From: the human T2T-CHM13v2.0 reference genome, Homo sapiens
DNA: 64,000 bases
Strand: one strand, 5' to 3'
Assembly (NCBI RefSeq): GCF_009914755.1
Contig: NC_060930.1
In this document: piece by piece, positions 45,370 through 49,931 of the stretch
Layout: each line of letters starts with the position of its first letter
Numbering within the stretch: the stretch's first letter is position 1
The notes under the pieces: model-generated
The model's input: the letters and a program-made list of their open reading frames with translations, nothing else
What the model was told of the DNA's origin: nothing
Database searches by the model: none
Translations under genes and position numbers: made by a program

Positions 45370-45495
45370 CTGCACCAATCACACGCTCAATTTTAATACA
45401 GGAGGCATCTAGCTCCTTGGCGAATTGATGGACAGCTCTATTTGGGTCCTCATAGGTTTCAGGGTCAATGTAGGTTTTGGTGCCTGGAAATTTAA
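45370..45495 (-). CDS. EPHA7: EPHA7 exon 10 (126 bp), juxtamembrane tyrosines and start of kinase; alternative acceptor starts at 45483
   Basis: cattacag|TTAAATTTCCAGGC...GGTGCAG|gtaagg. Translates (F)[41 protein letters not shown]. Confidence 0.96.
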
Positions 45496-46697
45496 CTGTA
45501 ATGATGTAAGAAAGCATGACTGTGATGAAGCAAAGCACTTATTGTGCAGTCAGCCCAGGAATTTCATTATGCAGAGTGCTCCTTGGAACAGTGAACTTGC
45601 TTCCACATCACCTGATTCACAGCAGTTTTAACAGACTACTTCAGTCTGCTGGCGTATAGGTATTATCTGCAAGCTTCTATAGGTAACATAGGATCCAGCT
45701 CATAGGTTACTAACTGAATTGCTTTTCCAGTAAATCAACAAAAGACATTCACCAAAATTTCTGACATGCCTATCAGACTGGAGGTTTAATTAAATTCACT
45801 GCTATCATGGCATAGTTCAAGCCATATTAAGGTTTGTAATGGACTTGGAAACACATTTGTAAATCTACCAGTCAGTCAATCAATCAAATTAATACACTGG
45901 GAAAAGAAGACATTTCATTTACAGGTAGCCTACTACACTGACAGCAATATTAAAAACATTTAGACATCTTACTTATTCTTTTGATTTATTTTTTTAAAGA
46001 CCAACCACCGTTGATATATACATAAAATTAATACAAGATGTGAGGGACTTCTATCACAGAATCAAAGAGATATCTTCTAAAGACAGTTTCATCTTCACCT
46101 TCAAGGGCAATAGAGGCCAGATATACAAAATGCAGAGTAAAGTTAGAAAATTTACAATATTCCTGGGATCTGTTAACCAAGTATGACAGCGATTTGAAAG
46201 AGGAATGGTTTATATGAACTTTCAATTATAAGGCTCTGGAAGATCTTAACTGCTGAGGAGGTAGCCAATATGCCTCACAAAAGGTAGTCAAAATGCAAAC
46301 AACATAGAATAATCTTAAAAGTTAAAATCTTCTTAAAATGCACCCAGAAGCATGCAGGTAACAGATAATACTATGTCAACTTTAAATAAAATTCAATTAC
46401 AATAATGTATTCCAAATCTATTTGGTAAAAGACAAAGATAAGATAGATAGGCATATATTTGGTTATATTAATGCAATAAAAATTACACTATATCCTCAAA
46501 AAAACTTTATTGTTTTAACAAAGCCACTGAACAATCTTTTCATCAAATCTTACTATTTGGAGAACAATATATTTCTTTATATATTACACTGCAGCCTAAC
46601 TGTGCTTATGTCATCACATTAAAACTATATTTTAAAAGTAAACACATAACAAAAAGAAGCAAAATGTATAAAGGAAAATGGGATTTAAAAATCTTGA

Positions 46698-46703
46698 TTT
46701 ATT
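46698..46703 (-). terminator. Candidate intronic poly(A) signal for the T1-type exon (second AATAAA at 46506-46511)
   Basis: TTTATT on the + strand (AATAAA on the transcript), 58 nt after the T1 stop codon. Confidence 0.5.
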
Positions 46704-46760
46704 CTGCTGTAGTTGATTGTTTATCCAAAATTGATTGTCTTAAACAATTATTGTTGCAGT

Positions 46761-46795
46761 TTATAAAACTGACAGATGCTCATTTGTTACTAAAG
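46761..46795 (-). CDS. EPHA7: Alternative terminal exon (T1-type kinase-less isoform), coding part
   Basis: cttcag|CT TTA GTA ACA AAT GAG CAT CTG TCA GTT TTA TAA. In frame with the exon 9 phase-1 donor it gives SLVTNEHLSVL*, the rodent EphA7-T1 tail as I recall it. It has a long pyrimidine tract upstream and AATAAA downstream. Confidence 0.85.
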
Positions 46796-49700
46796 CTGAA
46801 GATGAAAAAAAAAACAACACGAGAAGAAAAGAGAGAGGGGATAGAAGGAGAAAAGAGAGAAGAAGGAGTATAGGGAAAAGGGGAAGAGAAAAAGAGAGAA
46901 GGGAAGAAAACAATAGGTTAACCTCCTAGATTGGCAGGCAGATGGAGAATGAGCCATCTTCTCCCTTTTTATTCTCTCTTTCTTTCATTTTTTTAAAATT
47001 TTGTTTTGATAAGGGAGCTAGATTGGAGGTAACCTTCTGCATCTCAAACGGTCTCTGATGGTTCTTTATTCAAGCTGTCATAAAACATTTTGACAGACCA
47101 GAGCTTTTTTTGGCATAAAAACATGAAATACTGCCCAGCTTGGATTTGAAGACATTGTTAGAAGAAATGGTAGGAGGAAACAAAATGTAAATTCGAATTG
47201 CTTCACTAAATTCCTCCATTGTGTTTATATCTTTAAATGTAGCACTTGGGGCCATGAAAAGTTGAGGGTGCCTGATACAAATGACTGGACATTCTATTAA
47301 ATTCAGTGCTCTAAAAGCTAGTTAAATGGTTGCTTTCAAGTTTCTGTAAAAATTCAATCTGGTGTTCTAGCACCTGGGAAAATTGTCCATGTACTAAATA
47401 GAGGAATAAAAAGACAGCAACTTGTAAACAGCTGGTTACCACAGTATTATACTTTCTATATTAAGTAATCATAAAATCAAATAAAATACCTGGTTTTAAT
47501 CAAATGACAAGAAAACATATCCTTGGAAAAAGGGTGACTCAAAATATTAAGAATTTACCAGGATAGGATATGTTAAGTGCACTTTTTTCATTATTCATTT
47601 AAAAATGAATGTTTTAAAATAAGGAAAATACTGACATTATTTCTGAATATTCTGGTTTATCCCAACTTGAGTATGAACTTTTGTATTTTAAAATATTATT
47701 TTGATTTCTCATGAAATTTCAATATCTTAAAACCACCATTGCTAGTTTTCTCTAATGATGAAAACTTTATATACAGCAAGTTTATCTTGTCTATATTAGC
47801 AAGTAAGGCATGCAACTATATATTTTCTAATTACAAACTGGATGTGAAATGTGAAAAAAGTGAATGGCATAAAAATATTAAAACTGACTGATGACAATTA
47901 AGCATAAGGCTATACAACAAATTTTGGATAAGCCATGTTTCAACTGACCTTCTGCATTAACCTGCAAGTTAAAAGTAAATAAACTGGTGTATGTGATCAC
48001 TGGGGGATATTTCAAATATGCTCAATAAATAAAAGAAAAGTGAAATACTGATTATGGTAATATTAAATAATTGTGCCATTAAATTGTTCACATATGGGCA
48101 GGACCAGGGATTTCAGGAACTACAGTCTTATATTACTCTTCTATATACATTCTACACTAGAAATAAAATTTAGGCATTCAAGTTTTGATCTGCTCCTTCC
48201 TGTCTGGGGAAGTGTTAAAAATATTCTCACATGTTATTAAATAGAAACAAAAAAAGGTAACCTCCACTTTTTTCTCTATTTCCTCTAGCTATAAACTACC
48301 TATGGTTCTCTCTTCACTGAGGCTTGTCGCAGGAAAATTAATGCCAGATTAGCAAAAGGAAGTTCTGACATTGGGGGCATATCAAATAATCCCAAGTGGG
48401 GTATAGAAACACACATATTCAGTCATATTCAGGGGTATATTAAGTTTTTTGAGGCTTACCCCATATACAGTTTGGGATACTTTTTTTAGGGGAAAGAATA
48501 CATGATTATATACATAAATTTGCTACAGCACTCCCAGGGCCTAAAAAAGGCCTGTGAAAGTAAGAGGCCTTGAATATTAAACTTTATAATAAAGCCACTT
48601 CCGGGCATACATTTAACTTCAATTTGTAGTAAATTGTACTACCCCACATGCCCTTCCTATCATCAGAGGTTGAGATTCAAGAGAATTTCTTATTCAATTT
48701 GGATTTGTGTTACATAAAAGCACTTCTGTTTTGAAAACTAAAGGTAACTGTTGGTTCAAAAATACAAACACATTGAGAAAATTTAGGAATGATAAGAGCA
48801 TTTACAATTTGTGTATTTAAACCACACATTGTCATTTGAGCTTTTTTATTAAAAAAAAAGTATCACAAAGAAAATCTAAAATGTATTAGAAATTCTTGAT
48901 GGAGGCTTTGATATTCTTATGACTTTAGGATGGGTATAGGACAGTATCTTCACAGATATTGACATAAGAATCTAATAAATAACACAACAAAAGATACAAT
49001 TCTTACATCTTATGTCATGGGAAATTTATCTACACATGAGAACATTTGCCAAAGATTATGGGTACTACAAAATAATAATAAAATTGGTTTTTAATATTCT
49101 TAAGGATTAAAAATGGGGAAAATAGGTAAAGGTAAGAACATCATCAACTATCATAACTGAAGTAATTTGGTTGTTAGGTTTTGATTTTGCCTACATAAAG
49201 TAATAACAGTTACTCTCAGTGATCTCATTTTCACATGCCATCTTGTTTCATTGCAACAAGAATAAGATTAATGCAGATAGGCATCTATTTTATTTGGGTC
49301 CCTAAGCTTTCTTCTAAATATGATTTCTAAAATGAACTTTTAAGAATAAGCTAACTCAAATCCATAGGAAAACATCAGAAGTATGAATCTTATTATTATA
49401 CTATTTATGTCCTATGAAATATCTATCAATGATAGGTAATTTATAGTAGCTGAAGAGAAAGAGGCTCCTTAATTTAGCCTTTTGTGGTAGCATCACTCAT
49501 TGGATTAAAAAAGGGCCTATCTTTGTAACCTGACATGACATTCCTTAGCTAGAGAAGGGGCACATGCAACCTTTAATGTATTATTATTAGGATGGTAAGA
49601 AACACTTGGGCAAAGTTTGCAAAATGAAACATTGTGATGTAAAAGCAGCTGAATATCCTGCAATTATATGACATTTCTGAACATATTTTATTTTTTCAAA

Positions 49701-49875: not shown

Positions 49876-49931
49876 AATGAAAGTAAAGCTCTTCATCGCC
49901 TTCTTGGTCAGCTTTGCTATAACCACAGTGC
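49876..49931 (-). CDS. EPHA7: EPHA7 exon 9 (56 bp), proximal juxtamembrane; its donor is the branch point for full-length/T1/T2 choice
   Basis: ttcttcaag|GCACTGTGG...TTTCATT|gtaagt. Translates (R)HCGYSKADQEGDEELYFH plus 1 nt (phase 1). Confidence 0.95.

What the first reader, a model, noticed from the sequence alone, without database searches (positions are those of the whole stretch)
46506..46797. Intact T1 (kinase-less, dominant-negative type) terminal exon in intron 9
Seen: acceptor UUCAG|, then 35 coding nt giving SLVTNEHLSVL* in frame with exon 9, and AATAAA at 46698-46703 and 46506-46511. Recalled knowledge: mouse EphA7-T1 has this same tail and converts ephrin-A5 repulsion to adhesion during neural tube closure. 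Inference: identity of the peptide implies purifying selection and a functional human isoform. The -SVL terminus fits a class I PDZ-binding motif (S-x-L), so T1 would swap rather than lose its PDZ ligand.
Basis: partly seen in the sequence, partly recalled or inferred. Interest (0 to 1): 0.7.

Follow-up and report, generated by a model that had tools for sequence, protein, structure and literature searches.

The report
Known kinase-less EPHA7 T1 terminal exon
This is the already annotated alternative last exon of human EPHA7 that makes the short, kinase-less "T1" receptor long known from mouse, so the sequence reading is right but the finding is ordinary, and its suggested new docking motif remains an untested guess.

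Summary
On the minus strand an acceptor (ttcag|) opens an exon at 46795. Read in phase 1 after exon 9 (49876-49931), it gives SLVTNEHLSVL, then TAA at 46763-46761, 35 nt in all. AATAAA sits at both stated places.

This is not new. RefSeq already lists an alternative exon 45969-46795 with exactly this acceptor. Mouse EphA7-T1 is published as a 610-aa protein with a unique 11-aa tail (PMC7717530). The human form also comes to 599+11 = 610 aa.

Published mouse primers map here. They match 26 of 27 nt over VTNEHLSVL (the one change is synonymous), 24 of 27 nt from the stop codon, and 22 of 24 nt some 440 nt into the 3'UTR.

Three corrections:
- The tail is no better conserved than the neighbouring UTR (Fisher p=0.66), so peptide identity does not prove selection on the protein.
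- The -SVL "class I PDZ" fit is weak. Eleven of 130 chance tails in this intron match it, and a published T1 tagged with myc at its extreme C-terminus is still active.

One new detail: the acceptor has an exceptional 120-nt CU tract and a distant branch point, which suggests regulated (PTB-type) use.

The parts
49876..49931 (-). EPHA7 exon 9. It encodes the juxtamembrane residues ...HCGYSKADQEGDEELYFH plus the first base of the next codon. Its donor is ATT|GTAAGT, and both the full-length and the T1 transcripts use it.
   Evidence: hub annotation (NM_004440.4).
46796..46920 (-). CU-rich polypyrimidine tract ahead of the T1 acceptor, with the acceptor AG at 46797-46796. The only adenines upstream of the AG are at -8, -47, -74 and -76, so the branch point is probably 47 nt or more away.
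   Evidence: The 100 nt upstream are 93% pyrimidine, against 47-67% at the 14 other acceptors in the window. It holds 19 TCTT/TCTCT/CTCTCT motifs, against a mean of 1.1, and 0 of 2555 sampled 125-nt windows reach 19. NCBI masks 46795-46914 as low complexity.
46761..46795 (-). Coding part of the T1 terminal exon. These 35 nt complete codon 600 and encode SLVTNEHLSVL, followed by TAA at 46763-46761.
   Evidence: Mouse primers match 26 of 27 nt and 21 of 22 nt, and the single difference is CAT/CAC, both His.
45969..46795 (-). The whole alternative last exon (827 nt, 29% GC). It comprises 35 nt of coding sequence and a 792-nt 3'UTR. It is single-copy in the genome.
   Evidence: Hub RefSeq table ('exons of other transcripts 45969-46795'). 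One search found only the self-match in G000. Searches show 24 of 27 and 22 of 24 identity between mouse UTR primers and the human sequence.
45985..45990 (-). AATAAA lying 16 nt upstream of the annotated exon end (45969).
   Evidence: hub table.
46698..46703 (-). AATAAA, a possible proximal poly(A) signal with U-rich sequence downstream. Its use is unverified.
46506..46511 (-). AATAAA, a possible middle poly(A) signal followed by GTTTTTTTGAGG. Its use is unverified.

Best explanation
Window 45969-46795 (minus strand) is the alternative last exon of human EPHA7 that produces the membrane-tethered, kinase-less T1 isoform (610 aa).

How the transcript arises: after exon 9, the spliceosome either joins to exon 10 (45495), which gives the full-length receptor, or to the T1 acceptor at 46795. 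The T1 transcript is then cleaved and polyadenylated inside intron 9. The annotated site is 45969, after AATAAA 45990-45985.

What the protein keeps and loses: it keeps the ephrin-binding ectodomain, the transmembrane helix and 40-odd cytoplasmic residues. It replaces everything from residue 600 onward with SLVTNEHLSVL. The lost parts are the juxtamembrane tyrosines, the kinase domain at 633-888, the SAM domain at 921-985 and the -GIQV end.

What it does, as shown in mouse: it binds ephrin-A5, associates with full-length EphA7, lowers its phosphorylation, and shifts the outcome from repulsion towards adhesion or spine formation. That the human isoform does the same is inferred.

Regulation (inferred from sequence only): the exceptional CU tract with a distant branch point makes the T1 acceptor a likely target of PTB-type repressors. 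That would fit the postnatal rise of T1 in mouse cortex.

No sequence-specific role of the 11-residue tail has been shown.
For: - Exact acceptor, phase, tail and stop.
- A RefSeq alternative exon with identical 5' boundary (hub table).
- H599 + 11 = 610 aa, which equals the published mouse T1 length and its 'unique 11 aa C-terminus' (PMC7717530).
- Mouse T1 cloning and PCR primers map uniquely here: 26 of 27, 24 of 27, 22 of 24 and 21 of 22 nt. Zero matches are expected by chance.
- In the 998-aa orthologue P0007, Pfam places the kinase domain at 633-888 and the SAM domain at 921-985, both beyond the junction. P0007 differs from the human window-encoded part at 1 of 556 residues.
- The stop lies in a terminal exon, so no nonsense-mediated decay is expected (inference).
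- Mouse function comes from the abstract and passages of PMC7717530. Secondary accounts of Holmberg 2000 are in PMC2292196, PMC1431701, PMC3742426 and PMC7173967.
- CU-tract statistics.
Against: - No human expression data could be consulted here. There was no junction read, 3'-end or protein evidence, so the human isoform rests on the RefSeq model and on conservation with mouse.
- One of four mouse T1-specific primers (a qPCR primer) has no match within 3 mismatches and no convincing local alignment.
- No 610-aa T1-type protein appeared as a cluster representative among the 120 listed relatives (145 hits, 293 candidates). Conservation beyond mouse is therefore untested. Such isoforms may be hidden inside the 2113-member full-length cluster.
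- One paper notes that in vivo evidence for the adhesion model 'remains elusive' (PMC3907003).
- The PTB idea has no support beyond sequence. Epha7 was not found in the held supplement of PMC3896118 (1 file) or in 12 of 15 supplements of PMC5989265.
Confidence: 0.9

Rival explanations
1. The T1 tail is itself a functional class I PDZ ligand (H-L-S-V-L-COOH). On this view T1 swaps the full-length receptor's -GIQV ligand for a different scaffold partner rather than losing PDZ coupling. It is compatible with the main explanation and is an extra claim on top of it.
For: - The last three residues fit [S/T]-x-[L/V/I]-COOH.
- Nine tail residues, including SVL, and the stop are identical in mouse.
- The tail ends a cytoplasmic segment of some 40 residues beyond the membrane helix, judged by eye from the translation. 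That is long enough to reach a PDZ pocket (inference).
- A secondary account reports different subcellular distributions of truncated and full-length EphA7 in adult mouse brain (PMC2292196 passage citing Ciossek 1999).
- S-x-L ends are recalled as typical of Shank/NHERF-type PDZ ligands. This comes from memory and was not checked here.
Against: - The pattern is cheap. Eleven of 130 tails created by chance AGs in the same intron end [ST]-x-[LVI].
- The tail is no more conserved than the flanking UTR (1 of 27 against 5 of 51 differences, p=0.66).
- T1-myc, with the tag inserted between L610 and the stop, still shows every activity reported for T1.
- PMC7717530 describes T1 as lacking the PDZ-binding domain. 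Its 3 mentions of 'PDZ' include none that assigns one to T1, in the 12 of 24 passages shown.
- No paper proposing a T1 PDZ ligand surfaced in the searches.
Confidence: 0.15
2. The 11 residues carry no sequence-specific protein function. On this view the exon only supplies an early stop and a 3' end. Its conservation reflects RNA-level constraints (splice enhancers, poly(A) choice, 3'UTR regulation).
For: - Coding and UTR samples are about equally conserved between mouse and human.
- C-terminal tagging does not abolish T1 activities.
- Dominant-negative action needs only the ectodomain and membrane anchor. The tethered-decoy logic is laid out in PMC1431701.
Against: - The only coding difference from mouse is synonymous and none is non-synonymous, but with n=1 this carries no weight.
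- TrkB-T1, the closest analogue, is recalled to signal through its own short tail. This is recalled and was not checked.
Confidence: 0.35
3. In human the exon is a rarely used or vestigial model exon. On this view it is annotation noise or a low-level intronic polyadenylation product, with no physiological T1 protein.
For:
- The searches found no paper on human EPHA7-T1 as such. The human truncated-form literature seen concerns a secreted form (PMC2292196).
Against: - The acceptor, frame, stop and poly(A) signal are all intact.
- The acceptor has the strongest pyrimidine tract of the 15 examined.
- Sampled identity to the functional mouse exon is near 90% or higher.
- RefSeq carries the exon.
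- UniProt lists several human EPHA7 isoforms (PMC9917031 table). I could not verify which of them is T1.
Confidence: 0.06

Closest known systems
Mouse EphA7-T1 (MDK1-T1 / truncated Ehk-3)
   Same: - Same junction after exon 9 and the same 610-aa length.
- Same tail where checked (VTNEHLSVL plus TAA).
- Conserved 3'UTR stretches.
- Lacks the kinase domain, the SAM domain and the -GIQV end.
   Different: - The human 3'UTR model is 792 nt. The mouse T1-specific probe region spans 1190 nt of NM_001122889.1.
- There is one synonymous change in His606.
- Human expression and function were not examined here.
- The first two tail residues (S, L) are not covered by any mouse primer seen.
TrkB-T1 (truncated NTRK2) and other tethered decoy receptor kinases made from alternative last exons
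   Same: - Same architecture: ectodomain, transmembrane segment and a short unique tail from an intronic terminal exon.
- Same dominant-negative action on the full-length kinase. PMC1431701 lists Epha7 and Ntrk2 together as known tethered forms.
- PMC7717530 cites the TrkB-T1 literature as a parallel.
   Different: - It is an unrelated gene with an unrelated tail sequence.
- TrkB-T1's own signalling through its tail is recalled, not checked.
- No such signalling is known for EphA7-T1.
Secreted EPHA7 (EPHA7-TR/soluble form of lymphocytes and lymphoma)
   Same: It is also a kinase-less EPHA7 product that retains ligand binding (PMC2292196 passage; PMC1431701 table).
   Different: - It lacks the transmembrane segment.
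- It arises from a different, more upstream truncation, not from this exon.
- The 553-aa bat cluster representative P0005 (176 members) ends before the membrane helix and looks like this type.
Class I PDZ-binding C-termini ([S/T]-x-hydrophobic-COOH)
   Same: HLSVL-COOH fits the three-residue pattern.
   Different: - No binding is shown.
- The pattern occurs in 11 of 130 chance tails here.
- The full-length end -GIQV has Ile at -2. I recall that as class II-like, and it was not tested.

Membership tests
EphA7-T1 isoform (kinase-less tethered EphA7) | Splice from the exon 9 donor into an alternative terminal exon inside intron 9 | tested here: met
   The donor is ATT|GTAAGT at 49876, and the acceptor is CAG| with its first base at 46795. 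The RefSeq alternative exon 45969-46795 has the same boundary (hub table).
EphA7-T1 isoform (kinase-less tethered EphA7) | Unique 11-residue C-terminus and a total length of 610 aa | tested here: met
   The tail is SLVTNEHLSVL*. H599 + 11 = 610. PMC7717530 states 610 aa and 11 unique residues.
EphA7-T1 isoform (kinase-less tethered EphA7) | Tail sequence identical to mouse T1 | tested here: met
   Nine of 11 residues (VTNEHLSVL) and the TAA stop were read from mouse myc-insertion primers and mapped at 26 of 27 and 24 of 27 nt. The first two residues (S, L) are not covered by any mouse sequence seen.
EphA7-T1 isoform (kinase-less tethered EphA7) | Retains the ectodomain and transmembrane segment; lacks the kinase domain, the SAM domain and the C-terminal -GIQV | tested here: met
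   In P0007, Pfam places fn3 at 452-530, EphA2_TM at 560-630, the kinase domain at 633-888 and SAM at 921-985. The junction falls after residue 599. The full-length end -TGIQV* is in the window.
EphA7-T1 isoform (kinase-less tethered EphA7) | Expressed in human tissue | not testable with these tools
   No human RNA-seq, 3'-end or proteomic data were available. Only the RefSeq model is known.
EphA7-T1 isoform (kinase-less tethered EphA7) | Dominant-negative effect on full-length EphA7 phosphorylation; repulsion-to-adhesion shift | not testable with these tools
   There is mouse and cell-culture literature only (PMC7717530 abstract and passages; secondary accounts of Holmberg 2000).
Alternative last exon with intronic polyadenylation | AAUAAA 10-30 nt upstream of the transcript end, with U/GU-rich sequence downstream | tested here: met
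AATAAA at 45990-45985 lies 16 nt before the annotated end at 45969, with 12 GT/TG dinucleotides in the next 60 nt.
Class I PDZ-binding motif | C-terminal [S/T]-x-hydrophobic-COOH | tested here: met
   The tail ends ...H-L-S-V-L*.
Class I PDZ-binding motif | Pattern present beyond chance, or under protein-level selection | tested here: inconclusive
   Eleven of 130 chance tails in intron 9 match the pattern. Divergence from mouse is 1 of 27 nt in coding sequence against 5 of 51 nt in the UTR, p=0.66.
Class I PDZ-binding motif | Physical binding to a PDZ domain that needs the free carboxyl end | not testable with these tools
   No human PDZ sequences could be used in the complex predictor. Indirectly, C-terminally myc-tagged T1 keeps its reported activities.

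The most novel reading that the evidence does not exclude
The conserved HLSVL-COOH end of T1 is a real class I (S-x-L type) PDZ ligand. It would couple the kinase-less receptor to a different postsynaptic scaffold than the -GIQV end of the full-length form. That would contribute to the distinct soma and proximal-dendrite localisation of T1. Alongside this, use of the exon would be timed by PTB-type repressors bound to the 120-nt CU tract, which sits in front of an acceptor with a distant branch point. Neither idea was found in print in the searches made.
Probability: 0.12. Interest if true: 0.45.

Novelty: already known. Interest (0 to 1): 0.13.

Why it matters
EPHA7 isoform balance decides whether ephrin-A5 contact repels or adheres. 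In mouse this bears on neural-tube closure and on dendrite and spine development. EPHA7 haploinsufficiency has also been linked to a human neurodevelopmental disorder (reference cited in PMC11541728).

Confirming that the human T1 exon is intact adds nothing to current annotation. Three practical points do come out of the check:
- C-terminal tags on T1 would mask any PDZ ligand, so existing constructs cannot test that idea.
- The annotated poly(A) site is the distal one.
- The acceptor's extreme CU tract gives a concrete handle for asking what switches neurons from full-length EphA7 to T1.

Tried and rejected
1. T1 orthologues beyond mouse. A protein search with the exon 7 peptide (P0001, 'longer' lengths) gave 145 hits from 293 candidates, of which 120 were listed. 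None was a 610-aa T1-type representative. The short ones fetched are soluble forms (P0005, P0066, P0078), a partial model (P0058), a read-through of the exon 9 donor (P0051), a kinase-containing fragment (P0028), and a macaque fragment with a different tail (P0003). Conservation beyond mouse therefore stays untested. A second search was judged unproductive and not run.

2. A hairpin involving the CU tract. An Rfam E-value scan of 45800-47100 gave 7 weak hits to plant miRNA families at 46835-47001, with a best score of 28.8 bits against a gathering score of 64. Folding 46780-47060 gave -47.1 kcal/mol against -47.8 +/- 4.2 in shuffles, z = 0.18. I rejected it as low-complexity GA/CU complementarity.

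3. The exon as a repeat. Only the self-match was found in the genome, so this was rejected.

4. Literature links to intronic polyadenylation or splicing regulators. 'EPHA7' plus 'intronic polyadenylation' gave 0 papers. Among the 15 papers listed, none contained Epha7. The supplement look-ups found no Epha7, and 3 of 15 files of PMC5989265 were not searched.

5. The tail peptide as a text string gave 0 papers.

7. The mouse primer TAAGGACC... has no match in the window. Two eLife primers also have no genomic match and probably span exon junctions.

8. A complex prediction of the tail with a PDZ domain was not attempted.
Full report
**What is there.** On the minus strand, the gene's strand, the sequence around the stated place reads ...GTGTTGTTTTTTTTTTCATCTTCAG|CTTTAGTAACAAATGAGCATCTGTCAGTTTTATAA. 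The AG is at 46797-46796 and the first exon base is 46795.

Exon 9 of EPHA7 (49876-49931) ends ...TAC TTT CAT T followed by GTAAGT. The next exon is therefore entered in phase 1.

I joined the annotated coding exons by coordinates in a script. This gave one open frame ending ...HLHGTGIQV* for the full-length form. With 45969-46795 placed after exon 9, it gave ...GRRHCGYSKADQEGDEELYFH-SLVTNEHLSVL*. The stop is TAA at 46763-46761, and 35 nt of the exon are used, stop included.

AATAAA occurs on the minus strand at 46703-46698 and 46511-46506, as stated, and also at 45990-45985.

- Of the 246 AG dinucleotides in intron 9, 33% give a tail of at least 11 residues in this phase.
- AATAAA is common in this AT-rich window. 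There are 209 copies on both strands, against 166 +/- 12 in shuffles. That gives about 1.35 expected per 827 nt of one strand, against 3 seen.

Three other things make the exon real.
- RefSeq lists an alternative exon 45969-46795 with exactly this 5' boundary (hub table).
- Published mouse T1 sequences map here uniquely (see below).
- The acceptor is extraordinary. The 100 nt upstream are 93% pyrimidine, against 47-67% at the 14 other acceptors in the window.
- The tract also carries 19 TCTT/TCTCT/CTCTCT motifs, against a mean of 1.1 per 125 nt. None of 2555 sampled windows reaches 19.
- The only adenines upstream of the AG are at -8, -47, -74 and -76, so the branch point is probably distant.

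The exon is single-copy in the genome.

**Comparison with the known mouse isoform.** Leonard et al. [quoted passage not shown] I read the outline and abstract, 12 of 24 matching passages, and sections 12, 19 and 28 in full.

In the 998-aa orthologue P0007, the His of ...LYFH is residue 599, so the human T1 form is also 610 aa. P0007 differs from the human window-encoded part at 1 of 556 residues.

Their primers for inserting a myc tag give the mouse sequence on either side of the T1 stop codon.
- The part covering VTNEHLSVL matches the window at 26 of 27 nt (46764-46790). The single difference is CAT/CAC, both His.
- The part starting at TAA matches at 24 of 27 nt (46737-46763).
- One of their T1 qPCR primers matches at 22 of 24 nt at 46334-46357, about 440 nt into the 3'UTR.
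- The other T1 qPCR primer has no match.
- A T1 ('V2') primer from Arnold et al. 2020 (PMC7173967, passages) matches at 21 of 22 nt.

Pfam places the kinase domain at 633-888 and the SAM domain at 921-985. T1 therefore lacks both. It also lacks the juxtamembrane [10 protein letters not shown] stretch and the -GIQV end.

**How it works.** Shown in mouse, and read here only as abstract and passages: T1 reaches the membrane, binds ephrin-A5, co-precipitates with full-length EphA7, lowers its phosphorylation, rises postnatally in cortex and increases spine density.

Earlier work is known to me only through citing papers. It found that truncated EphA7 suppresses full-length phosphorylation and turns repulsion from ephrin-A5 cells into adhesion (Holmberg 2000). 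The original cloning was by Ciossek 1995 and Valenzuela 1995. One paper cautions that in vivo evidence for the adhesion model is still lacking (PMC3907003).

Inferred for human: the same tethered-decoy mechanism. The stop lies in a terminal exon, so the mRNA should escape nonsense-mediated decay.

Inferred from sequence alone: the choice between the T1 acceptor and exon 10 is a regulated competition. Exon 10 lies only 474 nt beyond the T1 poly(A) site. The CU tract and distant branch point are the sort of arrangement that PTB proteins repress. I found no literature support for this.

1. The annotated 3' end is 45969, which is 16 nt after the third AATAAA, not the two listed. The mouse primer match at 46334-46357 lies downstream of both listed hexamers. 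At least in mouse, the amplified transcripts read through the equivalent region. The two proximal hexamers may still be minor sites, since both have U-rich sequence downstream.
2. 'Identity implies purifying selection' is not established. The coding stretch differs from mouse at 1 of 27 nt and the sampled UTR stretches at 5 of 51 nt (Fisher p=0.66). One synonymous change has no statistical weight.
3. The PDZ idea rests on a three-residue pattern that 11 of 130 chance tails in the same intron also satisfy.
4. The T1-myc construct used for all functional assays in PMC7717530 has the tag inserted directly between L610 and the stop (mapped). That would block a carboxy-terminal ligand, yet the construct is active. 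This does not exclude a PDZ role in localisation at native levels. It does show that the known activities do not need one.

**Relatives.** The protein search with the exon 7 peptide gave 145 hits from 293 candidates, of which 120 were listed. It returned EPHA7 from sharks to primates but no 610-aa T1-type representative. At 90% clustering such isoforms are probably folded into the 2113-member full-length cluster. Conservation beyond mouse is therefore untested, not refuted.

**Novelty and score.** The exon, the isoform and its mechanism are known and annotated. The report confirms a correct reading and trims its inferences. The PDZ and PTB ideas are the only new elements. Both are speculative, and neither appeared in the searches. 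Interest is low.

Noticed in passing
window 48829-48971 (minus strand): A second alternative terminal exon lies in intron 9 and is listed among RefSeq 'other transcripts'. Its acceptor is TTATTAG|A, and AATAAA at 48850-48845 sits 16 nt before its end. In phase 1 after exon 9 it would give a different kinase-less tail, YSYVNICEDTVLYPS*, with TAA at 48927-48925. I did not establish whether this is the human counterpart of mouse 'T2'.
   Followed up: partly
window about 49751 (minus strand), 125 nt past the exon 9 donor: A macaque UniRef fragment (P0003, 168 aa) ends ...LYFH-SQIVALKHLNKMFRIKIM, which is a third kind of tail. The human intron encodes a similar ...NVALKHLNQMFRIKIM* in one frame. 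No human exon is annotated there.
   Followed up: partly
window 45472-45483 (minus strand), alternative acceptor of exon 10: The 3' half of the 'EphA7V3' forward primer of PMC7173967 matches the alternative exon 10 acceptor at 45483 exactly. That acceptor is 12 nt shorter and changes FKFPG to C. The primer therefore seems to target a kinase-containing 4-aa-shorter variant rather than a truncated T2, although the paper's text speaks of two truncated isoforms. The matching reverse primer has no genomic match in the window.
   Followed up: partly
window 46957-46995 (minus strand): A purine-rich stretch (GAAAGAAAGAGAGAAUAAAAAGGGAGAAGAUGG) lies just upstream of the CU tract. It explains the weak Rfam hits to plant miRNA hairpin families (best 28.8 bits against a gathering score of 64). 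The fold is no better than shuffles (z = 0.18).
   Followed up: yes
window 45969-45975 (minus strand): The annotated cleavage site lies within ATAA|GTAAGA, a sequence resembling a 5' splice site. Whether U1 binding there affects poly(A) site use is unknown.
   Followed up: no
protein P0051 (Ranitomeya imitator model): This frog gene model ends ...LYFH-CKCFLYFGNPL..., which is what reading through the exon 9 donor into the intron gives. The human intron would read CKCLAFLYYDVP. It is probably an automated-model artefact.
   Followed up: no
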